This document shows, piece after piece, positions 3,210 to 55,381 of a stretch of 64,000 nucleotides of DNA (position 1 is the stretch's first letter; the number at the start of each line of letters is the position of its first letter). Source of the stretch: Eledone cirrhosa (Eukaryota). The position numbers and the translations under genes are program-made. The DNA is taken from NCBI GenBank assembly GCA_964016885.1, contig OZ024742.1, positions 273,544,001 through 273,608,000 of the forward strand, read 5' to 3'. The notes under the pieces are model-generated. The model saw only the letters and a list, made by a program, of their open reading frames with translations. It made no database searches and was not told where the DNA came from.

Positions 3210-6200
3210 TTACCGCATTGGCCACAAGGGCTAACACGAAGAAAAACATTACAGGCGGCACAGAACAGTACAGGAAGATGCAAACTGGGTTTTGGTCGTG
3301 TAAACAAGTTATAACAAGATAGAAATCGGGATAGAAATTTAAACATAATTCAAACAACAGAAATTCCCCAAAAGGTGAAACGTCCGAGAGTCACTCGCGT
3401 CCAAAACCACACAAAAGACCACGGCCACCCTGACCACCAGGGCAAGCACCCTCTCTCAGTTTTCCAATCGTCAGTCTACAGGCGAATGCTCAGAGCGGCC
3501 CCGTTCACCCGGACCAGACTCGCTACTTTCACCCACCTTTCAAGAAACTTACTAGAAGACAGCATTTGCCTCTCCACCCTGATTTTCCTCTTCAAGTGAA
3601 ACTTGAAAACATTAATCATGTATTCGCCGGAGAGGAATGTGTTCATCTTCAAAACTTTCAAGCTTGTCAACTAAAAAATCTCTTTCGCCATGGTCACCAA
3701 GCAGATGAACATTGTGTGCCCTTCCTCCTCCATGAAGCAAGATAGTGGGGCTATCTTCACAATGGATTCAGTCGATAACCAGATCCGTCCTATACGCGAC
3801 AGCGACTGTTTGACATAGGACGGTTTACTCGTCCGGTGCACTTCTCGGACAGGCTCGGCTGACAACACCTCCATGCCTGTAAATCTTATTCCAAAGCCTG
3901 CAACGGTCCCCGCTAGCGCTGCCAGGTCAGGGATTTCTGGATGTTGTCCATAGGGTCCGGGCTGAAAGTTCTCTCGAAAAGAGCGAACAGCTGATCGTCT
4001 TCGACGCCCAGGGTCTCCCCGAGAATGACATCACTCTTCCCCTCCAACAGTCCTCTATAGAACGCCGAGGTGGATGTTCCACCGACAATAGTGTCCAGCT
4101 GGTAGAAGTCGTGAGCGCTTGGAGACATTCCAGCTACCAAACTCTATCCCTTGGTCTTTTTCTGATCCGGGAAAAGACGAGCTGGAGAAAAGTGAGTCAG
4201 GCAAATGGCGACCACAATTGTTCACCGTCAAAGAAGAGCCAGAGATGTCGCAGTCTCAAGCGTGTTTGCCTAGTCCTCCAAGCAATGGGTGTTGACAGCA
4301 GATGGATCGTCTGACCATGGGCGCACGTCCTTTTCACAAAAGATAAGGCGTACCATTATGGTCAGATTTGGGCGCGGGCAAGGTACGACGGTCAGGCGGT
4401 AGAAGATGACGGAAGCGATATATGCATTCGCCACCTCCGCCCGACCATTCAGAGACAGCTTCCTCTCATCCCATTTCTGGGTGAGATTGTCCACCCTGCT
4501 CATCACCTTACTCCAGTTTTTCTCCATCCGGACTGAACAAGAACCCGAGCAATTTAACCGGTTCTTCCGTCCAGTGCCCCACGAGGCTGTCGGATGGCAT
4601 GGACTTGCCTCTGCAGGTGACGAGTTGCAAGCCCACCGACTTTTTCTGGTTTATCTTTGCTCCTGTCACCGCCTCGTATTCCTTGAGAGCAGTGCCGAGC
4701 ATCTGGACGTGTTTGGTGCTCGGCACCCCCACGGTGACATCCTCGGCGTAAGCTGACACGGATCTCCCGCATCTCAGTTCGCGTAGGAACCCCTAAATCT
4801 TCTCCAATTTCCGCAGTAACGGCTCGCGGGCCAATACGTACAAGAAGTACGAGAGGAGAGAACCCTGGTGAACCGAGCGCATGTCCCTGAATGGCTGCGA
4901 CTGGTGATAATACACCCTCACAATCGAGCAGATGGCACTGTGCATCACAGCAATCCAGCCCCTAAAACCGGATACGAATCTGGCCGGCTCGAGGACCTAT
5001 CAAATGCTTTAGATTGATCCAAGTTGGGCAGGGACCCACACGTGCCAGGTTCCTTAACCACCCTCTCTATGATGTATATCATGAGACAGAGCTTGCGGTG
5101 GGTGTTTCTCTCCGGAATGTCGCATGTCTGTGCCTCTCCCACCAGATCACCGACAAAAAGAGCCGATCTCTTTGCTAACACATTTGACAAAATATCGAAC
5201 AATGCGTTTAGCAGAGTTATGGCCTGAATTTGTTTAGCACATTTATGGCCATAGTTATGGCATGATGCTGAAAGGCTGCGAAGGTGACCATTCACCCTTA
5301 AAATCGAAGCGATCCAGCTCCTGAAAATGGGCCCAAAACCCTCCCCCTCGAGGACCGCCACCAGGTACCGATGTTCTACCCTATCAAATGCCTTAGATTG
5401 ATCTAATTTGACCAGGGGCTCACTCATGTCAGGTTCCGTAAACACCCTCTCTATGATGTATCGGATGAAGTGGAGGTTGTTGTGGATGGATCTGTCTGGA
5501 ATGGCGCATGTCTGCGCCTTTCCTACCAGATTACCAACGACAAGTGCGAACCTCGTTGCTAACACTTTCGCCAAAATCTTGAAATCTGTGTTTAACAGGG
5601 TTATGGGCCTGAAATTGTCTATAACGTCCCCCTTGTTCGGGTCTTTTCTCAACAGCGCCACCGCTCCCCGGTTCACAAAACTGGAAATGTACCCGTTCTG
5701 CAAAGACGTCTGCCAAGAATTCGCCGGACAAGTCTAGCAATTGCGCATAAAGTTCGTAGGGTAGACCATCCAAAACTGGTGATTTGCCCCTCGTGCAATT
5801 ACACATCGCTTCCCATATTTGACCTGTTGTTATCGGCTTTTTAATTCACTGCGCTGCGGTCGGCGATAGCCGCTGCAGTCCGTCGAGGTATGTATAGAAC
5901 GCTATACTCCGAACCGGCCCGCCGCCTCCCCTGAACAATTGAGCAAATTGCTGTTGAAAAACCGCTCACATCTGCTCGGGATCGAGCAACATGCGCCCGT
6001 TTTAAATCATACAAAGACCGAGTTGTTGATTTGTTCCCACGTCGGTCCTCCACTACCCGGGCCCATTGAACGGGTTCGTCCCCTCGTGTCTCGGAGCAAT
6101 TGCTCTGGCTCTGAGAACGCAGCGCTCATGTTTTGCGTTGATGAATTGGTCGAGAGCCATTTTCGCCGCAAGCACTTCGGTTGTTATACCTGTCCTAAAC

Positions 6201-10146: not shown

Positions 10147-13100
10147 TTTTCTTTATTAACCACAAGGGTTTACATAAAGTAGACATTAAGGACAGTACAG
10201 GACAATACAGGACGGTACAAAAGGGCATTTCTGCGTGTAAAAAAAACAGAGGTTGAAATAAAATAACAAAGAAAAATTCCCTAATAGGGGGGAGACTTCC
10301 GAGGGACATTTGTGGAGAAAGCCCATTAAAAGACCACAGTGGCCCTGACCACCAGGGCAAGTGCCCTCTCCCAGTTTTCCACCTTTAATTTACAGACACA
10401 TACTCAGAGAAGGCCCATTCATTCGGGCCATACTTGCTTCTCTCACCCATCTTTCAACAAAATGCTGGGAAGAGAGCACTTCCCTCTCTACCCTGATTTT
10501 CCTTTTCAAATGAAATTTGAAAAAGTTAATCAGGGCATCACCGAAGAGGTAAGTGCCCGTCTTCAGCCCTTTCAAACGTGCCCACCATACTATCTCTTTC
10601 GCCATGGCCACCAGACAGATAAAAACTGCTTGCCCTTCCCGGCTAAAGGAAGGGGGCGGGGCAATCCTCACGATGGACTCAGCTGATAGCTGGATCCATC
10701 CTACACCCGACAGCAGGTGTTCGACATAAACCCACAAGTCAGCAATTCTCGGACACTGGACGAGTGCGTGCAGGACGGTCGTCGCCGTGCACGCATCTTG
10801 GACATGCCCGGCTGACTTCAGCTCCGTGCCTGTAGAGTTTATTCTGAACTGGAAAAGCTCTTCGGTAGCACTGCCAGGCCAGGGATTTCTGGGAGTTGTC
10901 CATAGGCCCCGGCCCGAAAGTTCTTCCGAAGAGATTCGCTAGTTGATTTTCGTCGACGCCTAGAGTTTCCCCAAGTACGTCGTAGATCTTCCCCTCCACT
11001 AATCCTCTATAGAACGCCGAGGTGGAGTTTCCACCGATCACATTGCCCGATTGGTCGAGAGTGTGAGCGCCTGAAGACATTCCAGCCTCCAAGCGCTCTC
11101 TCTCGGTCTTCGCTTGACCCAGGACTGCAGCTCCGTCAAGTAGACGAGCTGGGGAAAGACGCATCTAGCAAACAGCGACCACGCCTGATCACCGTCGAGG
11201 AAGAGGTGGAGATATCGTAGCCTGAGCGTGTGTCTGCGCATCATCAGCCAGGGCATGCCCAGGCCTCCACGTAGCGGGTGTTGACAGCAGATGGACCGCC
11301 TGACCATCGGAGCGCGTCCCTTTCACAAAAAGCGAAAGAGCAAACGCTCCAGCGCAGTCAGTTGGGGTTTAGGACAAAGTACGACGACCAGGCGGTAGTA
11401 GATCACCGACGCGATGTACGCGTTAGCCACCTCCGCTCGACCTTTCAGGGATAGCTTCCTCTCCGCCCATTTCTGGGTGAGAGAGTACCACCCTGCTCGT
11501 CACCTCGTCCCAGAATTTATCCGTCTGGAGGTCCGGATCGAACAAGACCACTAGCAATTTAACCGGTCCTTCCGTCCAGCGCCCGGGACGCTGTTGGATG
11601 GCATGGACCTGCCTCTCCAGGTGCCGAGCTGAAGGCCCGCTGAATTTTCCTTGTTGATCATTGCTCCTGTCAGCGCTTCGTATTATCTTAGTGTAGAGCC
11701 GATCGCTTCGATGTGTTTGGCGTTCGACACCTCTACGGTGACATCGTCCGCATATGCTACACGGATCTTCCGCTTCCTAGTTCGCGCGAGAATCCCCTCA
11801 ACGTCTCCAGTTTGTGCACTAAGGGCTCGAGAATCAATACGTACAAGAGGAACGAGAGGGGACATCCTTGGCGGACCGAGCGCATGATGTTGAATAGTTC
11901 CAAAAGTGACCGTTCACTCTCACCACAGAGGAGATGTCGCTTTGCTGGCAGCGATCCAACACCTGAAGAGGGGACCAAAGCCAGCTGCCCTCAGGACTGC
12001 CGCTAGGTAATGATGGTCGACCCAATCGAAAGCTTTCGAAGGATCTAAATTGATCAAGGACCCACCCGTGCCAGGTTCCCTACCTACCCTCTCTACGATG
12101 TATCGCATGAGGTGGAGGTTCTCGTGGATGGATCTGTCGGGAATGGCGTATGTCTGCACCTCTCCCACCAGACCACTAACGACAAGCGCCAACCGCTTTG
12201 CTAGCACCTTGGCCAAAATCTTGAACTCTGTGTTTAGCAGGGTTATGGGCCTAAAATTATCTATGTTATCCCCCTTGTTCGGATCCTTTCTCAGCAGCGC
12301 CACAGCTCCTCGGCTCACAGAGCTGGGAATGCTCCTGTTCTGTTGCCAGTTGCAGTAGACGTCCGGCAAGAGGCCTCCAAACAAGTCTGGCATCTGTACA
12401 CAAAGTTCATAGAGCAGACCATCCAAAGCAGGCGATTTACCCCTTATGCAGCCAGTCATTGCCTCCCATACTTCAGCGGCTGTTATCGGCTTTTCGCAAC
12501 ACTCCGCCTCAGTGGCCGTGAGCCGCGGCAGTCCGTCGAGGTAGACACTAAAATCCATCCCTCGATCAGGCCCGCCGCTGCCCCCGAACAGCTGAGCGAA
12601 GTGTCGCTGAAAAACTTTACACATTTGCCCTAGATCGAGTAGCATGCGCCCGTCTTGGTCCACCAAAGACCGGATCGTGGCTTTGTTGCCACGACGCCCC
12701 TCCGCCACTCTGTCCCATTGAACGGCTTTCGTCACCTCGTGTCTGAGAGCACGCACCCTAGCTCTGACAACGCAGCCTTCGTGCTTTGCATTGAAGAATT
12801 GGTCAAGGGCCAATTTCGCCGCAAGTACGTCGGTCGCGATGCCTTTGCTCAGCGCCTCGTCTAATTTTCTAACTAGTTCTCCCTCTGCTCTATTTTTCTC
12901 TATTGCTAAAGCCTTACTAAACCTAATGGACTCTATTCTAATCGCTCTTTTCATAGCAAACCATCGCTTGTTGTGGACGATGGCCCCCGTCAACGCCCGC
13001 ACAACTCGTTCGCTAATCCGGTCTCTCTAAGCCTTACGCGCTGGTAAGGACGCGTTTAGCTTCCAGTAGCCGGGTTCTCGTCTATGAAGCCTATCTAACT

Positions 13101-15838: not shown

Positions 15839-18800
15839 CTATAGGCGCATGGTCAGAGTAGGCCCATTCACACGAGCCATTCTCGCCACATTCACCCACC
15901 TTTTAGCAAATGTACTGGGAGCAGCACTTCTCTCTCCACCCTCACCCTCCTTTCCAGGTGAAACTTGAAGAAGTTGATGAGGGATTGGCCGAAGAGAAAA
16001 GTGTCTGTCTTTAGTCCTTTCAACCTGGTCCACCATATAATCTCTTTCGCAACTGCCACCAGACAGAGGAAAATGTCCTGCTCTTCCTGACCTAAGGAAA
16101 GTGCCGGCTCGATCTTCACTATGGACTCGGCCGATAACTGGATTCGTTCCACACGCGACAGTAGCTGTTCGACATAACTCCACAAGTCAGTAATGCACGG
16201 ACAATGGACAAGTGCGTGCAGAACGGTTTCGTCGTTCTGGCGTATATTGGGCAGGTCCGTCTGACAGCACTTCCGTGCCTGTAGAGTTTATCTCGAACCG
16301 GCAGTGCCCCTGGTAGCACTGCCAAGCGAGGGATTTCTGGAAATTGTCCATCGTCCCCGGCTCAAAAGTCCTCCGGTACAGACTGGTCAGTTCGACTTCG
16401 TCGAGGCCCAAAGCTTCTCCGAGTGCGTCATCGCACTTGCCCACCACTAATCCTCCATAGAACTCGAGAGTGGAAGTTCCACTGATCGCATTGCCCGCTT
16501 GGTAGAGGGCAGTGAGTGCCTGGCAACATTCCAGGTGCCAGTCACCCAGTCTCGGTCTCTTCTTGACCCAGGACTGCAGCTCAGTCAAAGAAATGAGCTG
16601 CGGAAAGGCCCGTCTGATAAACGGCGACCACACCTGTTCACCATTGAGGCAGAATATCTGGAGATGTCGCAGCCTCAACGCATGTCTGCGCATCATTAGC
16701 CACGGCATGCCCAGCCCTCCGCGTGGAGGGTGCTGGCAGCAGATGGACCGCCTCACCAACGGAACTTGTCCCCTCCACAAGAATTTGAAGAGGAGCCGTT
16801 CCAACTTGACGTGGCGCAGATGGGGGCAAGGCACGACGGTTAGGCGGTAATAGATGACGGACGCGATGTACGTATTCGCCACCTCCGCGCGACCTTTCAG
16901 TGATAGCTTCCTCCCAGCCCATATTTGGGTGAGACTGGCTACTCTGCTCGTTACCTCGTCCCAATTCTTTTCCACCTGGAGGTCTGGGCCGAACCAAACC
17001 CCAAGCAACTTTACTGGTCCGTCTGTCCAGCGCCCCACGACGCTGTTGGACGGCATGGGCTTGCCTCTCCAGGTTCCGAGCTGCAAACCCATCGACTTTT
17101 CCGGGTTAAGTTTGGCTCCTGTCAACCTTTCATATTCCTTCAATAAGGTGCCGACCACCTCGATTTCTGAGGTGTTCGACACCATCACGGTGATGTCGTC
17201 CGCATAAGCCGACACCGCCTTTCCACGTCCCGGTTCGAGCGGGATGCCCTGCAACAGCTCCAGCTTCCGCAGTAAAGGCTCGAGAGTCAATACGTACAGA
17301 AGGAAAGAGAGAGGGCACCCTTGACGGACCGATCGGGAGAGCCGAAATGGTTCCGAGAGGTGGCCATTAACTTTGACCACCGAGCGTGTGCCGCTGTGCA
17401 TTGCAACGATCCAGCTTCTAAAGATAGGGCCGAAGCCAGCTTCTTTGAGGACAAACTCCAGATACCGATGGTCGACCCTATCGAATGCTTTCGATTGATC
17501 TAAATTGATCAGTGCCCCACCGAAGCCAGGTTTACATCCTACCCTCTCTATGATGTATCGCATGAGGTGGAGATTGTCGTGTATGGACCTGGCTGGGATT
17601 GCGCAAGTTTGCGCCTCCCCAACCAAATCCTCGACGACAAGCGCCAATCTCTTTGCTAACACCTTGGCGAAAATCTTAAACTCTGTGTTGCGCAGAGTTA
17701 TGGGCCTGAAGTTGTCTAATGTATCCCTTTTGTTCTCGTCTTTCCTCATCAGCGTCCCCACTCCCCTGCTCACAGAACTGGGAATACTCCCTTTCTGCTG
17801 CCAGTTACAGTAGAGTGCTTCGAGGAGTTCGGAGAGCAAGTCTGGCATATTTACGTAAAGCTCGTAGGGCAGGCCATCCAAGCCGGGTGACTTGCGCCTC
17901 ATGCAGCCGACAAGGGCGTCCTGAATTTCGGCTGAAGTAATCGGCCTTTCGCAGCGCTCAGCGTCGACCGTCGAGATGCGCGGCAAGCCGTCAAGGTAGG
18001 GACTGAAATCCGCTACTCTCTCTGACCTGCCACTCTCCCCGAACAACCGAGCAAAGTGCTGGCGAAAGGCCTCACACATCCTCTTGGAATCGCTTATCTC
18101 GTGTCCGTTTCGGTCCGCCAAAGACCGAATTGTGGTTTTATTACCACGCTGCGCCTCCGCCACGCGGGCCCATCGAACAGCTTTAGTTCCCTCGTTTCTC
18201 AGCGCACGCGCCTTAGCTCTGACAATGCAACCTTCGTGTTTGGCATTGAAGAAATGGTCTAATGCCATTCTCGCCGCTTGCACGTCAGTTGCGATGCCAC
18301 TACAAATAGCCTCGTCTAACTTATCTAACAGCTCCCCCTCCTTTCTATTTTTCTCTAACGCTAGTTCTTTGCTGAACTCTATCGAAGTTACTCTAATCTC
18401 TCTTTTGAGAGCCCCCCACCATCTGTTTTTGATGATCCCCCCTGTCAACTTTTGCTTAACTAACTTATTGACTCGGTCCCTGTAAGCGTTACGTGCCGGA
18501 AATGACATGTTCAGCTTCCAGTAGCCCGCGCCTAACCTACGCGTTTTATTTAGGTCGACCGTACAGATCACACATTTGTGATCTGAATAGGCGACCGTTT
18601 TAAAAAGTGGACAGCCCACACTATTTCTATCTATTTTCCTAATGAAGATTCTGTCTATATACGATCTAGATGACCCCATTCGGTTGGTCCATGTCCAACT
18701 GGCACATTGGGGAAATATAGTCGATACCTGTCAGACAGTTGGAACTGGCTGAGTAGGTGCTTGAGGCTTTTGCACCCCCCGCTCCTATCGGCTACTCCCA

Positions 18801-37960: not shown

Positions 37961-38108
37961 CTTTCTCTTCCCCCTCCCTCGCTCTCTCTTTTCTCTCTCT
38001 CTCTCCCGCTGTCCCCCTCTCTTTCTGGAAGAAATCGGCTGTGTTCAGATTTAACAACAAATGAGCTCCACCAAGTTAAAAAATGCCAAAGTCATGCCGT
38101 ATAATCTC

Positions 38109-38447
38109 TCACTACTCGAAAACAATAGCGTAAGGTCTTCGAAATGCTTTTAATTAAGCATACAGTGTATTGCAAAATACACTATATATACATTCATATA
38201 TATATCGCTATTTCAGAGCACCAATTCTATAAGAAACAAACATTCATGATTTTCAGTAAACAGGTGGAGTACATGGCTTTGATAAGTACCAAAAAGTACT
38301 AAACAGAGCTATGTCAGCTTTATCTCCCCTGTTTGCTGAAAATTTAAAATAGGTGAGACTGTCACTACTCTAAAACAATAGTGTAAGGTCTTCGAAATGA
38401 TTTTAATTAAGCATACTGTGTATTGCAAAATGCACTATATATACATC

Positions 38448-38450
<3 letters not shown>
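38109..38450 (+). mobile_element. Diverged 253-bp-period relative of the 310-bp retrozyme-like unit (about 1.3 copies) with a decayed hammerhead at 38249-38343
   Basis: Shares 'aggtcttc.aaatg', 'catac-hairpin' and 'atatatatcgctatttcagagca' with the 310-bp unit. 'tcactactc' at 38109 and 38362. Runs into (TA)n. Confidence 0.7.
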
Positions 38451-38527
<77 letters not shown>

Positions 38528-38530
38528 ATA

Positions 38531-38677
<147 letters not shown>

Positions 38678-39014
38678 CAAGTAAGAATATTTTCGAAACA
38701 GCGAGTTGAATTGAAATTATTAGAAATGTTAGCTATCGCCGTATTTTCATTAAAGCAATTAAAGAAATTATTTAGCCTGATAGTGGGGTTAAGAATCCTC
38801 GGAGAAATGGAAAAAGATGAGTATTGACGTACATGTACGTCAATACTCTGTGAGTGAACACCGTTAATTTTCTCCCTCATATCAAGGATTTGAAGACAAT
38901 TCATTTTCACCTGACGTGTTCAGTGATAATCGATCATGGCTACACGATCGATCTATTTCTTATTGAAACATGTGTCGTGATTAAAATGATTGGAAATGTA
39001 TACCATGCCTTCGG

Positions 39015-39708: not shown

Positions 39709-40050
39709 TTAGAGAATGACGATTAACATGGTTGGCTGTACAATAAGTGCTTTATTTAAAGTACTGACAATTGTTTCGTTGATCATGTGGGTCTAGAGTT
39801 CGCTAATCGCTTGATGTTGTGTTATTCGATCTCCAATTCATTATTCACCTATAGTCAACACATCACAGCATGTAGATAGCATGTATCCACATGCTCTGAT
39901 GTGTTGACCATAGATGAATAATGTATTAGAGATCGAATAAAGCAACATCAAGTGATTAGCGAACTGTGGACCCACATGATCAACGAAACAATTGTCAGTA
40001 CTTAAAATAAAGCCCTTATTGTACAGCCAACCAGGTTAGTCTTCATTCTT

Positions 40051-40100: not shown

Positions 40101-41772
40101 AATAATGATGGCTGCCCGTTGCAATTGGTGGTGCATATGAAAAAGTGAGTCCTTCATCAGTGACCCTCCAACCGTCCCAGGCATTTCATCGCTTTAAGGG
40201 CCATATGCCTCAGGTTGGTGCGAACAACGGCTAAACAAAGTCGTTGGGACACGTAAATAAAGGGGACGTTAGGGTAACAAACAAAATGGTTTAAGCAACG
40301 GAAAGTGAGAAGAAATAGACAAGTCCCAGATCTCTATGAATATAAACTCGGTGAAATCGTGAACAAGAGACAAAAGACCATCAAACCTGGTTGAAATGTG
40401 AGAAAGGAAGGAATTTCGCACAAGTCTAACGGGGGGGAAGAAGAAGAAGAAGAAGAAGAAGAAGAAGAAGAAGAAGAAGAAGAAGAAGGGGTCTGGTCTA
40501 CGAATTCGGTAAACATAAGTTTTGAGAAGTCGCAGACGAAAGAGAGAGAGAAAAAAAATTCCATACCAGCTTGACCAGGACGCGCGAGAAAATAATTTCA
40601 CACAGGTCAAACTTGAAGGAGGAGGAGGAAAGAGGAGGAGGAGAGGTAGTGACAGAGAACGAGTGAGTGAAAGTTGAGGAGGAGGCTAACAGAGAGAGAG
40701 ACTGCTAGAAAGGGTAAAAGGTACAAAGAACGAGAAAGGGTAAAGGTACAAAGGACGAAACGGACGGATGGCAGCAGAAGAAAAATTATGTGTAAATATG
40801 ATAATAATGATGGCTGCCCGTTGCAAATGGTGGTGCATATAAAAAAGTGAGTCCTTCATCAGTGACCCTCCAACCGTCCCAGGCATTTCATCGCTTTAAG
40901 GGCCATATGCCTCAGGTTGGTGCGAACAACGGCTAAAAAAGTCGTTGGGACACGTAAATAAAGGGGACGTTAGGGTAACAAACAAAATGGTTTAAGCAAC
41001 GGAAAGTGAGAAGAAATAGACAAGTCCCAGATCTCTATGAATATAAACTCGGTGAAATTGTGAACAAGAGACAAAAGACCATCAAACCTGGTTGAAATGT
41101 GAGAAAGAAAGGAATTTCGCACAAGTCTAACGGGGGGGAAGAAGAAGAAGAAGAAGAAGAAGAAGAAGAAGAAGAAGAAGAAGAAGAAGAAGAAGAAGAA
41201 GAAGAAGAAGAAGAAGAAGGGGTCTGGTCTACGAATTCGGTAAACATAAGTTTTGTGAAGTCGCAGACGAAAGTGAGAGAGAAAAAAAATTCCATACCAG
41301 CTTGACCAGGACGCGCGAGAAAAGAATTTCACACAAGTCCAACTTGAAGGAGGAGGAGGAAAGAGGAGGAGGAGAGGTAGTGACAGAGAAAGAGTGAGTG
41401 AAAGTTGAGGAGGAGGCTAACAGAGAGAGAGACTGCTAGAAAGGGTAAAAGGTACAAAGAACGAGAAAGGGTAAAGGTACAAAGGACGAAACGGACGGAT
41501 GGCAGCAGAAGAAAAATTATGTGTAAATATGATAATAATGATGGCTGCCCGTTGCAAATGGTGGTGCATATGAAAAAGTGAGTCCTTCATCAGTGACCCT
41601 CCAACCGTCCCAGGCATTTCATCGCTTTAAGGGCCATATGCCTCAGGTTGGTGCGAACAACGGCTAAAAAAAGTCGTTGGGACAAGTAAATAAAGGGGAC
41701 GTTAGGGTAACAAACAAAATGGTTTAAGCAACGGAAAGTGAGAAGAAATAGACAAGTCCCAGATCTCTATGA

Positions 41773-42235: not shown

Positions 42236-44792
42236 ACATACAGAATATTTTCGAATATTCTATGTCTATATTCACATATATATCGCTATTTCAGAGCATT
42301 TATTCCAATTTCTAATTTCTGCCGGACCGGCAACCGCTCTTTCAAACCAGTTCCTGTACACAGCTAAGTATTCTATAAGTCTCTAGCTGTGTCATTCTCG
42401 ATAAAAGCACTGGATATGTAGTCCTGATGATTTCTAACAAGAATGAAACGCGTAGATTACTTCCCTTGCTTTTATCGAGAATCTAATTGTAATACGTGAC
42501 GTATTCTATTCTATAGCGATTAGGTCTTCAAAATGTTTATTATAAACATACAGAATATTTTCGAATATTCTATGTCTATATTCACATATATATCGCTATT
42601 TCAGAGCATTTATTCCAATTTCTAATTTCTGCCGGACCGGCAACCGCTCTTTCAAACCAGTTCCTGTACACAGCTAAGTATTCTATAAGTCTCTAGCTGT
42701 GTCATTCTCGATAAAAGCACTGGATATGTAGTCCTGATGATTTCTAACAAGAATGAAACGCGTAGATTACTTCCCTTGCTTTTATCGAGAATCTAATTGT
42801 AATACGTGACGTATTCTATTCTATAGCGATTAGGTCTTCAAAATGTTTATTATAAACATACAGAATATTTTCGAATATTCTATGTCTATATTCACATATA
42901 TATCGCTATTTCAGAGCATTTATTCCAATTTCTAATTTCTGCCGGACCGGCAACCGCTCTTTCAAACCAGTTCCTGTACACAGCTAAGTATTCTATAAGT
43001 CTCTAGCTGTGTCATTCTCGATAAAAGCACTGGATATGTAGTCCTGATGATTTCTAACAAGAATGAAACGCGTAGATTACTTCCCTTGCTTTTATCGAGA
43101 ATCTAATTGTAATACGTGACGTATTCTATTCTATAGCGATTAGGTCTTCAAAATGTTTATTATAAACATACAGAATATTTTCGAATATTCTATGTCTATA
43201 TTCACATATATATCGCTATTTCAGAGCATTTATTCCAATTTCTAATTTCTGCCGGACCGGCAACCGCTCTTTCAAACCAGTTCCTGTACACAGCTAAGTA
43301 TTCTATAAGTCTCTAGCTGTGTCATTCTCGATAAAAGCACTGGATATGTAGTCCTGATGATTTCTAACAAGAATGAAACGCGTAGATTACTTCCCTTGCT
43401 TTTATCGAGAATCTAATTGTAATACGTGACGTATTCTATTCTATAGCGATTAGGTCTTCAAAATGTTTATTATAAACATACAGAATATTTTCGAATATTC
43501 TATGTCTATATTCACATATATATCGCTATTTCAGAGCATTTATTCCAATTTCTAATTTCTGCCGGACCGGCAACCGCTCTTTCAAACCAGTTCCTGTACA
43601 CAGCTAAGTATTCTATAAGTCTCTAGCTGTGTCATTCTCGATAAAAGCACTGGATATGTAGACCTGATGATTTCTAACAAGAATGAAACGCGTAGATTAC
43701 TTCCCTTGCTTTTATCGAGAATCTAATTGTAATACGTGACGTATTCTATTCTATAGCGATTAGGTCTTCAAAATGTTTATTATAAACATACAGAATATTT
43801 TCGAATATTCTATGTCTATATTCACATATATATCGCTATTTCAGAGCATTTATTCCAATTTCTAATTTCTGCCGGACCGGCAACCGCTCTTTCAAACCAG
43901 TTCCTGTACACAGCTAAGTATTCTATAAGTCTCTAGCTGTGTCATTCTCGATAAAAGCACTGGATATGTAGTCCTGATGATTTCTAACAAGAATGAAACG
44001 CGTAGATTACTTCCCTTGCTTTTATCGAGAATCTAATTGTAATACGTGACGTATTCTATTCTATAGCGATTAGGTCTTCAAAATGTTTATTATAAACATA
44101 CAGAATATTTTCGAATATTCTATGTCTATATTCACATATATATCGCTATTTCAGAGCATTTATTCCAATTTCTAATTTCTGCCGGACCGGCAACCGCTCT
44201 TTCAAACCAGTTCCTGTACACAGCTAAGTATTCTATAAGTCTCTAGCTGTGTCATTCTCGATAAAAGCACTGGATATGTAGTCCTGATGATTTCTAACAA
44301 GAATGAAACGCGTAGATTACTTCCCTTGCTTTTATCGAGAATCTAATTGTAATACGTGACGTATTCTATTCTATAGCGATTAGGTCTTCAAAATGTTTAT
44401 TATAAACATACAGAATATTTTCGAATATTCTATGTCTATATTCACATATATATCGCTATTTCAGAGCATTTATTCCAATTTCTAATTTCTGCCGGACCGG
44501 CAACCGCTCTTTCAAACCAGTTCCTGTACACAGCTAAGTATTCTATAAGTCTCTAGCTGTGTCATTCTCGATAAAAGCACTGGATATGTAGTCCTGATGA
44601 TTTCTAACAAGAATGAAACGCGTAGATTACTTCCCTTGCTTTTATCGAGAATCTAATTGTAATACGTGACGTATTCTATTCTATAGCGATTAGGTCTTCA
44701 AAATGTTTATTATAAACATACAGAATATTTTCGAATATTCTATGTCTATATTCACATATATATCGCTATTTCAGAGCATTTATTCCAATTTC
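42229..44792 (+). repeat. 310-bp hammerhead-containing tandem array A (about 8.3 units, 8 ribozymes)
   Basis: 'tataaacatacagaatatt' at 42231, 42541 ... 44711. Only one variant seen (43662). (TA)n on both sides. Confidence 0.97.
42394..42482 (+). ncRNA. Type I hammerhead ribozyme (first of 35 copies; core 42418-42460; predicted cleavage after A42454)
   Basis: guaguc-CUGAUGA-u uucu[aaca]agaa u-GAAA-CGCG-UA-gauuac. Stem I continues past an internal loop as a perfect 16-bp helix (attctcgataaaagca/tgcttttatcgagaat). Stem III is the palindrome ACGCGU. Confidence 0.88.
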
Positions 44793-45039: not shown

Positions 45040-46651
45040 CAAGATTGGGCCACTCTTCCATACAAACGGTTCATTAACCGAGAATACCCATAGATGAATT
45101 GGCTAGCAGTATAGTACTCAGGGAGCTGAAGGGGGCACAATATGCCCTATACACAAAGGATGTAGCAGAGTGGAGACCAAAAACTATAGGCCAGTCTCCC
45201 TGATTCGCATATCAGTAAGATCATGGAGCGAGTTGTCAGAAAGAAACTGATCATTTTCCTCGAGGAAAATGACCGGCTGTCTAGCACGCAGCATGGCCTC
45301 CGCCCAGGAAGAAACTGCCTTACACAACTTCTACATCACTACGACTGGGTACTGAAACAACTGCTAGACAGTTCACTTGTGGACGTGATATATATTGACT
45401 TTGCGAAGGCCTATGACAAGGTCGACGACGGAATGATATGTCACAAACTACACGGACTCGGCATAACTGGAAAAGTAGGTGAGTGGTTGCATGACTTCTT
45501 AAAGGACAGAAGCCAGACAGTCGCAGCAAACGGGGCCCTCTCAAAGGAAACATCAATAACAAGTGGAGTGCCCAAAGCGACAATCCTGGGACCACTAGTG
45601 TTTTTAGTGGCTCCCTCAGACATGCCCTCTGTAGTACATACAACGACATCCTTCACATAGCTATGCTGATCACACTAAGGTAGCACAGACAATCAAAAAC
45701 CCGGCTGACGCTGCCCTTTTACAAGATCTGGATGCCATATACAAATGGACGGACGAAAACAACATGCAGTTTAATGCTGGTAAATTCAAAGCCCTACAAT
45801 ACAAACCTGCAAACACAAATACAGTACAGCACAGCTACGCAAGAGCAGGAGGGACCGATATCCTCATGCCAAAATCTATACGAGACCTGGGCATAGACAT
45901 GAGCGATGATGCAGCTTTTTCCTCACACATCATGAAAGTGGCGACAATGTGCAGACGACTCGCTGGCTGGATCTTGCGGACTTTCCGGACAAGAGACGGT
46001 GACAACATGTTGACACTATGGAGGACATTTTTCCTAAGCCGCCTGGACTATTGCTCCCAATTGTGGTCACCCCATAATGTCAAACTAACCACAGTGGTTG
46101 AGGCAATCCAACGAAGCTACACCAAGAGGATTGCCACGATGAAGGAGATAAGCTACTGGGAGAGGCTAAAAGAACTGAACCTCTACTCATTGGAACGAAG
46201 AGAGGAGGGATACTCAGTGATCTACATGTGGAAAGTCTTGGGGGAACTAGCACCAAACTTTGGCATTGGGAGCTGGACCAACAGTCGAACAGGAAGTCAC
46301 TGTGTGGTGCCAAAAGTCCCGTCTTCCCCATCTAGAATAAGGAGCATATATTGCAATATCGTGGGTTTTAAGGGCGCTCAACTCTTCAACAAGCTGCCGA
46401 GGGATCTGAGTGATCTGTATGGTGTGGAGGTGGATGCCTTCAAGAAACATCTCGTCACCTTGCTATCCAGGATCCCGGATGAGCCTACAGCAAGGGACGG
46501 GGGAATCCTAAGGGCAGCAGCAACAAACTCCCTCTTACACCAGTGGCCAACCAATACAGGCTGGAGATAAAATGTGTAGCAACAAGGGCGGTGCCCCAGC
46601 ATGGCCTCTGCCGGATGGCTGGGACGGGTAAAAGGGTAAAAGAGTAAAAAA

Positions 46652-50620: not shown

Positions 50621-50707
<87 letters not shown>

Positions 50708-50711
<4 letters not shown>

Positions 50712-53700
50712 TATAGACATAGAATATTCGAAAATATTCTGTATGTTTATAATAAACATTTTGAAGACCTAATCGCTATAGAATAGAATACGTCACGTAT
50801 TACAATTAGATTCTCGATAAAAGCAAGGGAAGTAATCTACGCGTTTCATTCTTGTTAGAAATCATCAGGACTACATATCCAGTGCTTTTATCGAGAATGA
50901 CACAGCTAGAGACTTATAGAATACTTAGCTGTGTACAGGAACTGGTTTGAAAGAGCGGTTGCCGGTCCGGCAGAAATTAGAAATTGGAATAAATGCTCTG
51001 AAATAGCGATATATATGTGAATATAGACATAGAATATTCGAAAATATTCTGTATGTTTATAATAAACATTTTGAAGACCTAATCGCTATAGAATAGAATA
51101 CGTCACGTATTACAATTAGATTCTCGATAAAAGCAAGGGAAGTAATCTACGCGTTTCATTCTTGTTAGAAATCATCAGGACTACATATCCAGTGCTTTTA
51201 TCGAGAATGACACAGCTAGAGACTTATAGAATACTTAGCTGTGTACAGGAACTGGTTTGAAAGAGCGGTTGCCGGTCCGGCAGAAATTAGAAATTGGAAT
51301 AAATGCTCTGAAATAGCGATATATATGTGAATATAGACATAGAATATTCGAAAATATTCTGTATGTTTATAATAAACATTTTGAAGACCTAATCGCTATA
51401 GAATAGAATACGTCACGTATTACAATTAGATTCTCGATAAAAGCAAGGGAAGTAATCTACGCGTTTTATTCTTGTTAGAAATCATCAGGACTACATATCC
51501 AGTGCTTTTATCGAGAATGACACAGCTAGAGACTTATAGAATACTTAGCTGTGTACAGGAACTGGTTTGAAAGAGCGGTTGCCGGTCCGGCAGAAATTAG
51601 AAATTGGAATAAATGCTCTGAAATAGCGATATATATGTGAATATAGACATAGAATATTCGAAAATATTCTGTATGTTTATAATAAACATTTTGAAGACCT
51701 AATCGCTATAGAATAGAATACGTCACGTATTACAATTAGATTCTCGATAAAAGCAAGGGAAGTAATCTACGCGTTTCATTCTTGTTAGAAATCATCAGGA
51801 CTACATATCCAGTGCTTTTATCGAGAATGACACAGCTAGAGACTGATAGAATACTTAGCTGTGTACAGGAACTGGTTTGAAAGAGCGGTTGCCGGTCCGG
51901 CAGAAATTAGGAATTGGAATAAATGCTCTGAAATAGCGATATATATGTGAATATAGACATAGAATATTCGAAAATATTCTGTATGTTTATAATAAACATT
52001 TTGAAGACCTAATCGCTATAGAATAGAATACGTCACGTATTACAATTAGATTCTCGATAAAAGCAAGGGAAGTAATCTACGCGTTTCATTCTTGTTAGAA
52101 ATCATCAGGACTACATATCCAGTGCTTTTATCGAGAATGACACAGCTAGAGACTTATAGAATACTTAGCTGTGTACAGGAACTGGTTTGAAAGAGCGGTT
52201 GCCGGTCCGGCAGAAATTAGAAATTGGAATAAATGCTCTGAAATAGCGATATATATGTGAATATAGACATAGAATATTCGAAAATATTCTGTATGTTTAT
52301 AATAAACATTTTGAAGACCTAATCGCTATAGAATAGAATACGTCACGTATTACAATTAGATTCTCGATAAAAGCAAGGGAAGTAATCTACGCGTTTCATT
52401 CTTGTTAGAAATCATCAGGACTACATATCCAGTGCTTTTATCGAGAATGACACAGCTAGAGACTTATAGAATACTTAGCTGTGTACAGGAACTGGTTTGA
52501 AAGAGCGGTTGCCGGTCCGGCAGAAATTAGAAATTGGAATAAATGCTCTGAAATAGCGATATATATGTGAATATAGACATAGAATATTCGAAAATATTCT
52601 GTATGTTTATAATAAACATTTTGAAGACCTAATCGCTATAGAATAGAATACGTCACGTATTACAATTAGATTCTCGATAAAAGCAAGGGAAGTAATCTAC
52701 GCGTTTCATTCTTGTTAGAAATCATCAGGACTACATATCCAGTGCTTTTATCGAGAATGACACAGCTAGAGACTTATAGAATACTTAGCTGTGTACAGGA
52801 ACTGGTTTGAAAGAGCGGTTGCCGGTCCGGCAGAAATTAGAAATTGGAATAAATGCTTTGAAACAGCGATATATATGTGAATATAGACATAGAATATTCG
52901 AAAATATTCTGTATGTTTATAATAAACATTTTGAAGACCTAATCGCTATAGAATAGAATACGTCACGTATTACAATTAGATTCTCGATAAAAGCAAGGGA
53001 AGTAATCTACGCGTTTCATTCTTGTTAGAAATCATCAGGACTACATATCCAGTGCTTTTATCGAGAATGACACAGCTAGAGACTTATAGAATACTTAGCT
53101 GTGTACAGGAACTGGTTTGAAAGAGCGGTTGCCGGTCCGGCAGAAATTAGAAATTGGAATAAATGCTCTGAAATAGCGATATATATGTGAATATAGACAT
53201 AGAATATTCGAAAATATTCTGTATGTTTATAATAAACATTTTGAAGACCTAATCGCTATAGAATAGAATACGTCACGTATTACAATTAGATTCTCGATAA
53301 AAGCAAGGGAAGTAATCTACGCGTTTCATTCTTGTTAGAAATCATCAGGACTACATATCCAGTGCTTTTATCGAGAATGACACAGCTAGAGACTTATAGA
53401 ATACTTAGCTGTGTACAGGAACTGGTTTGAAAGAGCGGTTGCCGGTCCGGCAGAAATTAGAAATTGGAATAAATGCTTTGAAACAGCGATATATATGTGA
53501 ATATAGACATAGAATATTCGAAAATATTCTGTATGTTTATAATAAACATTTTGAAGACCTAATCGCTATAGAATAGAATACGTCACGTATTACAATTAGA
53601 TTCTCGATAAAAGCAAGGGAAGTAATCTACGCGTTTCATTCTTGTTAGAAATCATCAGGACTACATATCCAGTGCTTTTATCGAGAATGACACAGCTAGA

Positions 53701-54099
53701 GACTTATAGAATACTTAGCTGTGTACAGGAACTGGTTTGAAAGAGCGGTTGCCGGTCCGGCAGAAATTAGAAATTGGAATAAATGCTCTGAAATAGCGAT
53801 ATATATGTGAATATAGACATAGAATATTCGAAAATATTCTGTATGTTTATAATAAACATTTTGAAGACCTAATCGCTATAGAATAGAATACGTCACGTAT
53901 TACAATTAGATTCTCGATAAAAGCAAGGGAAGTAATCTACGCGTTTCATTCTTGTTAGAAATCATCAGGACTACATATCCAGTGCTTTTATCGAGAATGA
54001 CACAGCTAGAGACTTATAGAATACTTAGCTGTGTACAGGAACTGGTTTGAAAGAGCGGTTGCCGGTCCGGCAGAAATTAGAAATTGGAATAAATGCTCT
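50708..54099 (-). repeat. 310-bp hammerhead array C (about 10.9 units, 11 ribozymes), 'gattac' variant
   Basis: 'agtaatctacgcgtt' every 310 bp from 50831 to 53931. Point variants at 51467, 51845, 51911, 52858/52864 and 53478/53484. Confidence 0.97.
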
Positions 54100-55381
54100 A
54101 TATTCACATATATATCGCTATTTCAGAGCATTTATTCCAATTTCTAATTTCTGCCGGACCGGCAACCGCTCTTTCAAACCAGTTCCTGTACACAGCTAAG
54201 TATTCTATAAGTCTCTAGCTGTGTCATTCTCGATAAAAGCACTGGATATGTAGTCCTGATGATTTCTAACAAGAATGAAACGCGTAGATTACTTCCCTTG
54301 CTTTTATCGAGAATCTAATTGTAATACGTGACGTATTCTATTCTATAGCGATTAGGTCTTCAAAATGTTTATTATAAACATACAGAATATTTTCGAATAT
54401 TCTATGTCTATATTCACATATATATCGCTATTTCAGAGCATTTATTCCAATTTCTAATTTCTGCCGGACCGGCAACCGCTCTTTCAAACCAGTTCCTGTA
54501 CACAGCTAAGTATTCTATAAGTCTCTAGCTGTGTCATTCTCGATAAAAGCACTGGATATGTAGTCCTGATGATTTCTAACAAGAATGAAACGCGTAGATT
54601 ACTTCCCTTGCTTTTATCGAGAATCTAATTGTAATACGTGACGTATTCTATTCTATAGCGATTAGGTCTTCAAAATGTTTATTATAAACATACAGAATAT
54701 TTTCGAATATTCTATGTCTATATTCACATATATATCGCTATTTCAGAGCATTTATTCCAATTTCTAATTTCTGCCGGACCGGCAACCGCTCTTTCAAACC
54801 AGTTCCTGTACACAGCTAAGTATTCTATAAGTCTCTAGCTGTGTCATTCTCGATAAAAGCACTGGATATGTAGTCCTGATGATTTCTAACAAGAATGAAA
54901 CGCGTAGATTACTTCCCTTGCTTTTATCGAGAATCTAATTGTAATACGTGACGTATTCTATTCTATAGCGATTAGGTCTTCAAAATGTTTATTATAAACA
55001 TACAGAATATTTTCGAATATTCTATGTCTATATTCACATATATATCGCTATTTCAGAGCATTTATTCCAATTTCTAATTTCTGCCGGACCGGCAACCGCT
55101 CTTTCAAACCAGTTCCTGTACACAGCTAAGTATTCTATAAGTCTCTAGCTGTGTCATTCTCGATAAAAGCACTGGATATGTAGTCCTGATGATTTCTAAC
55201 AAGAATGAAACGCGTAGATTACTTCCCTTGCTTTTATCGAGAATCTAATTGTAATACGTGACGTATTCTATTCTATAGCGATTAGGTCTTCAAAATGTTT
55301 ATTATAAACATACAGAATATTTTCGAATATTCTATGTCTATATTCACATATATATCGCTATTTCAGAGCATTTATTCCAAT
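54097..55381 (+). repeat. 310-bp hammerhead array D (about 4.1 units, 4 ribozymes), head-to-head with array C
   Basis: 'tagtcctgatga' at 54251, 54561, 54871 and 55181. The junction shares 'tct' microhomology at 54097-54099. Confidence 0.97.

What the first reader, a model, noticed from the sequence alone, without database searches (positions are those of the whole stretch)
38109..38450. Older relative of the 310-bp unit shows compensatory base pairs and a UUCG-to-GCAA tetraloop swap
Seen: this 253-bp-period repeat aligns with the young unit. The hairpin agaatatt-TTCG-aatattct is replaced by agtgtatt-GCAA-aatacact (38164-38183), with two compensated pairs and one stable-type tetraloop exchanged for a GNRA. 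It also has a different-sequence 16-bp helix (attttcagtaaacagg/cctgtttgctgaaaat) enclosing a decayed hammerhead: ggcu-UUGAUAA-guac[caaaaa]guac-UAAAC-a..u-GUC-agcu. It ends in (TA)n in the same region of the unit as the young arrays. Inference: selection acted on RNA structure, and the conserved non-ribozyme hairpin near the 3' junction may be the signal recognised by the mobilising RT.
Basis: partly seen in the sequence, partly recalled or inferred. Interest (0 to 1): 0.75.

Follow-up and report, generated by a model that had tools for sequence, protein, structure and literature searches.

The report
Aged hammerhead retrozyme with conserved hairpins
This stretch is a worn copy of a small non-coding jumping repeat that carries a hammerhead (self-cutting RNA) fold and two small hairpins kept paired by matching mutations across related repeat families; it is a known kind of animal element, likely moved by Penelope-like retrotransposons, and the hairpins may be the handle that the copying enzyme grips.

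Summary
Window 38100-38457 is 1.4 units of a dispersed ~320-bp repeat, homologous over its whole length to the young 310-bp unit. This copy has lost 60 bp and ends in (TA)n.

The hairpin at 38164-38183 and the 16-bp helix are real and are compensated relative to the young unit. In larger samples, 28 of 31 pairs of the hammerhead domain and 5 of 8 pairs of the hairpin change on both sides while staying paired.

The "decayed" core is only partly decay. TAAAC (G12 to U) is private to this copy. UUGAUAA is the family's fixed state: the published U3-A8 covariant of C3-G8, reported active in vitro. Positions 3/8 read U-A in 45 and C-G in 14 of 61 distinct domains.

The UUCG/GCAA swap carries no signal, because 13 different loops occur among 31 representatives.

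Family copies end at two fixed points about 26-31 bp apart, lie in (TA)n and often abut inverted copies. That is the Penelope-like insertion signature, so this is an animal non-LTR retrozyme. The hairpin lies about 13 nt before the inner end point; a role as reverse-transcriptase signal is plausible but untested. No autonomous partner was found.

The scan has noted such elements elsewhere in this genome (e1-9507777, e1-9533222, e1-9530650, e1-9511136), but not this family by sequence.

The parts
38100..38358 (+). First unit of the older ~320-bp family: unit positions ~5-320, lacking unit 129-188
   Evidence: blastn against a full unit from L027: unit 5-128 at 97.6% and 189-320 at 92.4%. The 60-bp loss lies between two AATTCTA words of the family unit.
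38359..38457 (+). Partial second unit (unit 1-104), ending at the family's inner ('short') 3' terminus
   Evidence: 92% identical to 38106-38205; 93.3% to unit 1-104. In the family, 28 of 55 termini next to (TA)n end at unit 104.
38144..38161 (+). Hairpin A (atgctt-ttaatt-aagcat)
   Evidence: Folded in the MFE structure. Pair C-G here is U-A in the young unit and most other families. Its outer pairs were fixed by the search pattern in many sampled rows.
38164..38183 (+). Hairpin B (agtgtatt-GCAA-aatacact), the hairpin of the finding
   Evidence: Across 31 cluster representatives 88.3% of cells are paired against 78.1% shuffled and 25-61% slid; 5 of 8 pairs change on both sides.
38197..38229 (+). 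Inner end-point region (tatatatat) and the 'tail' up to the outer end-point motif AATTCTA; here internal because a further unit follows
   Evidence: Family termini cluster at unit 104 (28) and 130-135 (26) of 55. Young arrays in the window end at the same two places.
38228..38233 (+). TATAAG word conserved upstream of the ribozyme domain (possible TATA box; inferred)
   Evidence: TTCTATAAG is present in the old, young, fam3 and famT units. No test of promoter function.
38249..38343 (+). Hammerhead domain closed by the 16-bp helix (38249-38264 with 38328-38343)
   Evidence: Own covariance model R1: 97.5 bits on +, 26.2 bits on -. Covariation on 61 distinct domains.
38279..38285 (+). Core strand UUGAUAA (U3...A8 in place of C3...G8)
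   Evidence: Positions 3/8: U-A 45, C-G 14, A-G 1, C-A 1 of 61 distinct domains.
38300..38304 (+). TAAAC: G12 replaced by U, a private inactivating change of this copy
   Evidence: This triplet reads GAA in 55, AAA in 4, GTA in 1 and TAA in 1 (this copy) of 61 distinct domains.
38313..38315 (+). GUC triplet; predicted cleavage after C38315 in an intact family member
   Evidence: TGTC in 45 of 61 distinct domains at this place. Cleavage itself was not tested.
38417..38436 (+). Hairpin B of the second unit (tgtgtatt-GCAA-aatgcact): first pair broken, one U-G wobble
   Evidence: Read. The wobble pairs only on the + strand RNA.
38449..38677 (.). (TA)n into which the element's 3' end runs
   Evidence: TRF 38436-38677, period 2, 120.5 copies.

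Best explanation
Window 38100-38457 is a worn 1.4-unit copy of a ~320-bp non-coding repeat family that carries a hammerhead-ribozyme fold, and it was likely pasted into a TA repeat by the reverse transcriptase of a Penelope-like element.

Shown:
- The family is homologous to the young 310-bp arrays over the whole unit.
- Each unit holds a hammerhead three-way junction closed by a 13-16-bp helix. About 40 nt downstream lie two small hairpins (A and B).
- After them come two alternative 3' end points, about 13 nt and about 40-50 nt beyond hairpin B.
- The helices of the ribozyme domain and both hairpins stay paired through many double substitutions between families.
- The family core reads UUGAUAA...GAAAC...GUC, that is U3-A8 instead of C3-G8.
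- This particular copy is dead: G12 is U, one helix III pair is broken and 60 bp are deleted.

Inferred:
- Units are transcribed as multimers.
- The hammerhead of intact members cuts them to unit length. The U3-A8 form is reported active in vitro for other hammerheads.
- A Penelope-like reverse transcriptase starts copying at the two internal points and inserts the copy at a nick in (TA)n.
- Hairpins A and B, just upstream of the inner start point, position or recruit that enzyme. I give this last step about 0.35.
For: Family and anatomy:
- The own-genome DNA search gave 1666 first-look candidates, of which 40 were scored and 150 matches listed.
- A full 320-bp unit was read in L027.
- The old unit aligns with the young unit at 199 of 323 columns.

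Ribozyme domain:
- Model R1 found 97 matches, 61 of them distinct.
- 91.9% of cells are paired, against 82.0% shuffled (0 of 500 shuffles reach it) and at most 48.7% slid.
- 28 of 31 pairs change on both sides. Covariation score is 0.362 against at most 0.093 slid.
- Positions 3/8 are U-A in 45, C-G in 14 and other in 2 of 61. G12 is G in 56 of 61.
- U3-A8 sub-lineages (L004-type, L085, L136, L113) differ from each other by compensated changes in helices I, II, III and the outer helix.
- Rfam Hammerhead_HH9 scores 24.4-25.5 bits on the three L027 units and 19.2 bits on the young unit, all below the gathering score of 52.

Hairpins.

Insertion signature:
- Termini next to (TA)n fall at unit 104 in 28, at 130-135 in 26 and at 113 in 1 of 55.
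- Starts are variable and inverted copies abut.
- The young arrays are head-to-head with both 3' ends outward.
- The hairpin-A word occurs 28,945 + 1,015 + 1,131 times in the genome, against 3 + 2 + 23 for reversed controls.

Literature (passages or named sections read):
- Animal retrozymes: PMC7229834; bioRxiv 10.64898/2026.07.22.740005, section 14.
- PLE tail, (TA)n bias and inverted copies: PMC8557442.
- Reverse transcription starting at two internal sites in a stem-loop, with the tail between them: PMC11167929.
- U3-A8 natural and active in vitro: PMC3088659. U3-A8 in PLE hammerheads: PMC4209133.
Against: - No RNA data could be obtained, so transcription, cleavage and circles are unshown.
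- No Rfam hammerhead model reaches its gathering score, on this copy or on intact family members.
- In thermodynamic folds the minimum-energy structure of the family domain is not the hammerhead. It is a rod in which the U3-G5 strand pairs with the helix III strand (-38.2 against -35.3 kcal/mol for L027; -44.2 against -32.9 for the window copy).
- No autonomous Penelope-like element carrying the hairpin module or this ribozyme domain in cis was found among 30 + 16 GIY-YIG loci.
- In the one element tested in vitro, hammerhead cleavage was not needed for insertion (PMC11167929).
- The covariation alignments have limits. A5 was fitted to the model's structure. A2 rows came partly from pattern searches that fix the outer pairs of hairpin A and the first two 5' bases of hairpin B. 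Rows are related copies, not independent events.
- Fold energies do not tell the strands apart.
Confidence: 0.8

Rival explanations
1. The hairpins are conserved for the RNA's own life rather than for the reverse transcriptase. They could give a compact fold that protects a small circular RNA, help ligation by a host tRNA ligase, or time the hammerhead. The 3' end points would then be set by other means.
For: - Retrozyme RNAs are reported as abundant circles closed most likely by tRNA ligase (PMC7229834, abstract and passages).
- The whole unit folds into a branched, well-paired structure.
- The hairpins are shared by families whose ribozyme domains differ.
Against: - Hairpin B keeps a fixed distance of about 11-13 nt from the inner end point in families of different sequence.
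- The one Penelope-like enzyme studied starts copying in a stem-loop (PMC11167929).
- Neither point excludes this rival.
Confidence: 0.3
2. The two 3' end points are set by base pairing between the nicked (TA)n target and short UA-rich runs of the RNA (microhomology priming), not by a protein-hairpin contact.
For: - The inner end point of the old and young units lies at the unit's own tatatatat run.
- The outer one follows AATTCTAAT / CCAATTTC.
- Nearly all insertions seen lie in (TA)n.
Against: - In the famT families the inner end follows CAATA with little UA run in full-length units.
- This rival can coexist with a hairpin signal.
Confidence: 0.3
3. The U3-A8 hammerhead of the older family is catalytically dead. 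Only its helices are kept, for folding or enzyme binding.
For: - Rfam scores are far below gathering.
- A competing rod fold is slightly more stable.
- Penelope-type hammerheads show low activity in vitro, and cleavage is dispensable for insertion in vitro (PMC4209133, PMC11167929, passages).
Against: - Every other core position stays canonical in most copies: GAA in 55 of 61, and GUC kept.
- Positions 3 and 8 covary without U-G intermediates.
- U3-A8 hammerheads are reported active in vitro (PMC3088659, passage).
Confidence: 0.2
4. It is plain satellite DNA whose inverted repeats are kept at the DNA level or by chance, with no selection on RNA.
For: - The young family forms long, nearly identical arrays.
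- Both strands fold about equally well.
Against: - Double substitutions keep pairing in 28 of 31 pairs, and many cells are G-U, which would be C-A on the other strand.
- The hammerhead core reads on one strand only: 97.5 against 26.2 bits.
- Copies are dispersed with fixed 3' ends and variable 5' ends.
Confidence: 0.03

Closest known systems
Animal non-LTR retrozymes (Cervera and de la Pena 2020, PMC7229834; Li et al. 2026, bioRxiv 10.64898/2026.07.22.740005)
   Same: - Non-coding unit of ~300 bp with low G+C and a type I hammerhead.
- Tandem copies from dimers to long arrays.
- Helix III short and palindromic, so the ribozyme is expected to work as a dimer.
- A U-U mismatch at the base of helix II in the young unit, as described for an axolotl motif.
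- Proposed dependence on Penelope-like elements.
   Different: - The older family uses the U3-A8 core.
- The unit also carries a two-hairpin module next to two fixed 3' end points, shared by several families. I did not see this described in the passages I read.
- RNA circles are not shown here.
Hammerheads of Penelope-like element pLTRs, including the U3-A8 variant of Schistosoma mansoni Cercyon (Cervera and de la Pena 2014, PMC4209133); natural U3-A8 variants (Perreault et al. 2011, PMC3088659)
   Same: - Covariation of core positions 3 and 8.
- Palindromic helix III.
- High sequence variability with compensatory changes within one genome.
   Different: - Here helix III is 3-6 bp and helix I is extended by a long closing helix, not the 'minimal' form.
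- No reverse-transcriptase ORF adjoins.
Poseidon element PAc of Anolis carolinensis: internal initiation of reverse transcription (Frangieh et al. 2024, PMC11167929)
   Same: - Two adjacent start sites downstream of the hammerhead, with the 30-40-bp 'tail' between them.
- Start in or next to a stem-loop.
- AT-rich targets, with both DNA strands used.
   Different: - In PAc the sites lie inside the ORF and the stem-loop is AC-rich.
- Here there is no ORF, the hairpins are AU-rich and lie about 13 nt upstream of the inner site.
- Nothing was tested biochemically here.
SINE-LINE pairs that share a 3' stem-loop recognised by the LINE reverse transcriptase (recalled from memory, e.g. eel UnaSINE1/UnaL2; no paper read here)
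   Same: A non-autonomous element that carries a conserved 3' hairpin as the likely ticket for another element's enzyme.
   Different: - A different class of enzyme.
- The partner that shares the hairpin is not identified here.

Membership tests
Hammerhead ribozyme, type I | Three helices around the core C3U4G5A6N7G8A9 / G12A13A14 / A15.1-U16.1 / H17 | tested here: not met
   This refers to the window copy: G12 is U (38300) and helix III carries a mismatch. For the family the feature is met with the published U3-A8 covariant: 45 of 61 distinct domains U-A, 14 C-G; GAA in 55 of 61; GUC kept.
Hammerhead ribozyme, type I | Helices supported by covariation | tested here: met
   28 of 31 pairs change on both sides. 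91.9% paired against 82.0% shuffled and at most 48.7% slid. The alignment was fitted to the model.
Hammerhead ribozyme, type I | Reaches the curated score of an Rfam hammerhead model | tested here: not met
   No match at gathering in the window. HH9 scores 19.2 bits (young), 24.4-25.5 bits (L027) and 22.2 bits (L136) against a gathering score of 52. The window's old copy has no match at E up to 10.
Hammerhead ribozyme, type I | Self-cleavage at H17 | not testable with these tools
   No RNA holder was listed.
Animal non-LTR retrozyme | Non-coding tandem unit of about 170-400 bp with a type I hammerhead and low G+C | tested here: met
   Unit of 320 bp. There are 1.4 units here, 2.7 in L027 and about 9 domains in L083. 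G+C of the domains is 0.34-0.45 in the old family. No long ORF.
Animal non-LTR retrozyme | Expressed as linear and circular unit-length RNA | not testable with these tools
   One search listed no RNA run. The three runs laid are contigs that behave like genomic DNA.
Insertion made by an endonuclease-bearing Penelope-like element | Two alternative 3' ends 30-40 bp apart ('tail') | tested here: met
   28 termini at unit 104 and 26 at 130-135 of 55. Young arrays end at the same two places, 33-40 nt apart. The gap in the old family is 26-31 bp by alignment, and longer if the unit's own TA run is counted.
Insertion made by an endonuclease-bearing Penelope-like element | AT-rich or (TA)n target, variable 5' start, adjoining inverted 5'-truncated copy | tested here: met
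   for the families. The window's old copy itself has the (TA)n end but no inverted arm.
Insertion made by an endonuclease-bearing Penelope-like element | Reverse transcriptase plus GIY-YIG ORF in the element, or an identified partner sharing its ends | tested here: not met
   No ORF in the unit. The module and domain models found no cis-linked copy at 46 GIY-YIG loci. The RT fragment at 45107-46570 is LINE-like.

The most novel reading that the evidence does not exclude
The two-hairpin block (hairpins A and B with the invariant words around them) is the cis-acting handle by which a Penelope-like reverse transcriptase picks its template and sets its internal start points. Roughly 31,000 copies in at least half a dozen ribozyme-bearing families of this genome ride on that one signal. 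It would be the first sequence-defined trans-mobilisation signal for this class of retroelement.
Probability: 0.3. Interest if true: 0.65.

Novelty: new member of a known kind. Interest (0 to 1): 0.4.

Why it matters
How Penelope-like elements choose their RNA template, and how protein-free retrozymes borrow their machinery, is still open. Only one such enzyme has been studied in vitro. This genome offers a natural experiment: several families share a small, covarying hairpin block at a fixed distance from two fixed copying start points, while their ribozyme domains have diverged. That gives a concrete, short RNA element to test.

It also shows a hammerhead lineage that kept the U3-A8 core through later compensated changes. 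This argues that the variant works in an animal retroelement and is not merely tolerated.

The copy in the window itself is an ordinary dead insertion.

Tried and rejected
RNA evidence:
- No RNA holder was listed for the family.
- The three runs laid are short contigs that break at the repeat, with (TA)n loose ends. They say nothing on RNA.

Search for the autonomous partner:
- A Pfam GIY-YIG search of the own genome gave 10,598 first-look candidates.
- 30 loci with 1.5-kb flanks and 16 loci of 9.9 kb with open frames of about 400-1,100 aa were examined.
- These were scanned with blastn (30 loci only), the module HMM and model R1.
- The hits were independent insertions: L032, L092, L105; L055, L101 and L102 belong to another family.
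- ORFs near 90 module-bearing loci were listed by eye but not scanned against Pfam. Those that read like reverse transcriptase (LINE-like, plus one Penelope-like fragment in L123) were unlinked, and L123 proved to be an unrelated neighbour.
- A pattern for copies whose outer end reads on without the TAA gave 38 places, all ordinary copies in the five inspected.

Other dead ends and rejected ideas:
- Rfam at gathering found nothing.
- Look-ups of earlier notes by sequence found nothing.
- Rejected: selection for special tetraloops. 13 different loops occur among 31 representatives, and UUCG here lacks a C-G closing pair.
- Considered and left open: a 28-30-codon open frame runs from the ATG in hairpin A to the TAA at the outer end point in the old, young and fam3 units. 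The young unit reads it in another frame and famT has an early stop, so coding constraint is unlikely (my own reading of the sequence).
- Strand assignment by fold energy was not informative.

Full report
**What is there.** The window between 38100 and 38457 holds 1.4 head-to-tail units of a repeat. The hairpin agtgtatt-GCAA-aatacact sits at 38164-38183. The 16-bp helix pairs 38249-38264 with 38328-38343. The string ggct-TTGATAA-gtac-caaaaa-gtac-TAAAC-...-GTC-agct runs from 38275 to 38319. The copy ends in the (TA)n that TRF places at 38436-38677. All sequence statements of the finding are correct.

**The family.** A DNA search of the window's own genome (3.0 Gb, 1796 contigs) gave 1666 first-look candidates, of which 40 were scored and 150 matches listed.
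- In 30 fetched loci the normal unit is 320 bp, read from a 2.7-unit array in L027.
- The window copy lacks unit positions 129-188, a loss between two AATTCTA words. Otherwise it is 92-98% identical to the L027 unit.
- A full unit aligns with the young 310-bp unit over its whole length, at 199 identical of 323 columns. The match is about 79% in the hairpin block and about 52% in the ribozyme domain.
- The young arrays are 99-100% uniform. The two partial units here differ by 8%. "Older relative" is therefore fair for this copy.

**The hammerhead.**
- In the young unit: helix I is gtagtc/gattac, the core strand is CUGAUGA, helix II is uuucu-aaca-agaau with a U-U at its base, then GAAAC, and helix III is the palindrome ACGCGU with site GUA.
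- In the older family the commonest domain, identical in several loci such as L004, reads agcu-UUGAUAA-guac-caaaaa-guac-GAAAC-agagcucu-GUC-agcu. Helix III again forms a palindrome.
- The family therefore restores GAAAC but not CUGAUGA.
- I built a covariance model from six natural domains (A3, R1) and searched 51 sources (50 loci and the window). This gave 97 matches above 35 bits, 61 of them distinct.
- Positions 3 and 8 read U-A in 45, C-G in 14, A-G in 1 and C-A in 1. The G12 triplet reads GAA in 55, AAA in 4, GTA in 1 and TAA in 1, the last being the window copy.
- C3 and G8 pair in the active fold. Covariation to U3-A8 is reported in natural hammerheads, with such ribozymes said to be active in vitro (PMC3088659, passage). 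About 1,300 Penelope-type motifs of Schistosoma mansoni also carry it (PMC4209133, passage).
This copy also carries a C-to-A change that breaks a helix III pair, a variant shared with a few other copies (L008, L021).
- U3-A8 sub-lineages (L004-type, L085, L136, L113) differ from one another by compensated changes in helices I, II, III and the outer helix. The fold was therefore kept after the core switched.
- Rfam does not accept any of these. There is no match at gathering. HH9 scores 19.2 bits for the young unit, 24.4-25.5 bits for L027 and 22.2 bits for L136, against a gathering score of 52.

**Covariation.**
- On the 61 distinct domains, 91.9% of cells pair, against 82.0% after shuffling (0 of 500 shuffles as high) and 39.6-48.7% when partners are slid.
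- 28 of 31 pairs change on both sides. The covariation score is 0.362 against at most 0.093 slid.
- All 16 pairs of the outer helix change on both sides somewhere in the set. Between the old and young units, 8 of its 16 positions differ and all are compensated.
- Many cells are G-U, which would be C-A on the other strand. The model scores 97.5 bits on the + strand of the window copy and 26.2 on the - strand.
- Caveats: this alignment was fitted to the model's structure, and the rows are related copies.

**The hairpin block.** Pattern and profile searches showed that hairpins A and B belong to a block shared by families whose ribozyme domains differ.
- The hairpin-A word followed by CATAC occurs 28,945 + 1,015 + 1,131 times in the genome. 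Reversed controls give 3 + 2 + 23. Most copies belong to the young family.
- From 106 distinct block copies in the loci held, I took the 31 cluster representatives at 88% identity, with none dropped, and aligned them (A2).
- For both hairpins together: 91.2% paired against 84.6% shuffled and 22-51% slid, with 7 of 14 pairs changing on both sides.
- For hairpin B alone: 88.3% against 78.1% (0 of 500 shuffles) and 25-61% slid. Covariation is 0.334 against at most 0.060 slid. Five of 8 pairs change on both sides, but 120 of 500 shuffles reach that last count.
- Pair types include A-U, C-G and G-U at the first pair, U-A (13) against A-U (12) at the sixth, and C-G (15) against U-A (8) at the last.
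- Bias to note: two thirds of the rows came from a pattern that fixes the outer pairs of hairpin A and the first two 5' bases of hairpin B. Hairpin A's figures are therefore inflated.
- The loop of hairpin B is not kept. UUUA occurs 16 times, GCAA 2, AUCA 2, and GCCA, ACAA, GUCA, UUCG, ACCA and others once each. The UUCG-to-GCAA swap is real but tells nothing about selection for stable tetraloops.

**How copies sit in the genome.**
- Family insertions start at variable unit positions and often abut an inverted copy.
- They end next to (TA)n at two places. Among 55 termini, 28 end at unit 104, 26 at 130-135 and 1 at 113. A few loci overlap, so some termini are counted twice.
- The young arrays in the window end at the same two places: the outer one at 44792, 50578 and 55381, and the inner one at 50699 on the reverse strand. 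The arrays 50699-54099 and 54097-55381 meet head to head.
- Across the genome the young family forms minus-then-plus array pairs.
- Two end points a few tens of bases apart, (TA)n targets and adjoining inverted 5'-truncated copies are the described signature of endonuclease-bearing Penelope-like elements (PMC8557442, passages).
- For the Anolis element PAc, reverse transcription starts in vitro at two adjacent internal sites in a stem-loop downstream of the hammerhead, with the "tail" between them (PMC11167929, main text).
- Tandem ~300-bp non-coding units with type I hammerheads are the animal non-LTR retrozymes (PMC7229834, passages). These have been argued to derive from Penelope-like pLTRs (bioRxiv 10.64898/2026.07.22.740005, section 14).
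- The element here fits that class. Hairpin B ends about 13 nt before the inner end point in the old, young and fam3 units, and about 11-13 nt before it in the famT families.

**What is not shown.**
- No RNA run was available.
- The minimum-energy fold of the family domain is a rod that competes with the hammerhead fold. This is usual for such RNAs but leaves activity open.
- I found no autonomous element carrying the block or this ribozyme domain in cis at 46 GIY-YIG loci, nor by two other routes.
- The reverse-transcriptase fragment between the young arrays (45107-46570) is LINE-like.
- The role of the hairpins as enzyme signal therefore stays an inference. Rivals are a role in the RNA's own folding or ligation, and end points set by microhomology with the TA target.

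**Papers.** I read only the passages or sections named above. Supplementary figures of PMC4209133 and PMC7229834, and the supplements of the preprint, were not seen. They may show similar hairpins or U3-A8 retrozymes.

**Verdict.** The window copy is an ordinary dead member of a known kind. The family context adds a testable candidate signal and a well-kept U3-A8 hammerhead lineage.

Noticed in passing
window 45107-46650: 5'-truncated LINE-like retroelement (RVT_1 hit; C-terminal part with no Pfam match). It lies between two young arrays and ends at a (TA)n. It is not a Penelope-like element.
   Followed up: partly
window 39775-39988: A ~210-bp long hairpin-forming inverted repeat. It matches plant-type miRNA precursor models far below their gathering scores (56 bits against 140), so it is probably a foldback or MITE-like insert.
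   Followed up: no
window 38819-38848: A near-perfect 30-bp palindrome (agtattgacgtacatgtacgtcaatact) about 150 bp beyond the (TA)n.
   Followed up: no
window 38270-38315: Three differences of this copy from the commonest family sequence all strengthen the alternative rod fold that competes with the hammerhead: T to A and A to G in the helix I strand, and C to A in helix III. The fold energies are -44.2 against -32.9 kcal/mol. Two of the three also occur in other copies (L008, L015-type).
   Followed up: partly
window 38228-38233; young units e.g. 42371-42376: The word TTCTATAAG is conserved 14-17 nt upstream of the ribozyme domain in the old, young and fam3 units, and further upstream in famT. 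It may be a TATA box of an internal promoter.
   Followed up: no
window 38144-38229 and young units: A 28-30-codon open frame runs from the ATG in hairpin A to the TAA at the outer end point in the old, young and fam3 units. The young unit is in a different frame and famT has an early stop. It may be a relic of a parent element's ORF start, or chance.
   Followed up: partly
L078 about 1350-1450 (minus strand); L136; L085: Further families or sub-lineages with UUGAUAA...GAAA cores. L130 has a CUGAGAA core (C3 with A8), a possible intermediate or a decayed copy.
   Followed up: partly
L096 ~985, L091 ~9245, L100 ~7945; L101 8138-9707: Other hammerhead-bearing repeat families with their own two end points in (TA)n. 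One has a TATAAATA box about 35 nt upstream of the ribozyme. Another is a ~490-510-bp tandem array.
   Followed up: no
window 16187-18679, 11920-13002, 4945-5703: ORFs with reverse-transcriptase (RVT_1) matches, the longest 830 aa. These are other retroelements in the window.
   Followed up: no
window 40437-41489: (GAA)n runs and a 25-bp two-copy repeat recur about 730 bp apart (40437/41138 and 40707/41438), which suggests a local tandem duplication.
   Followed up: no
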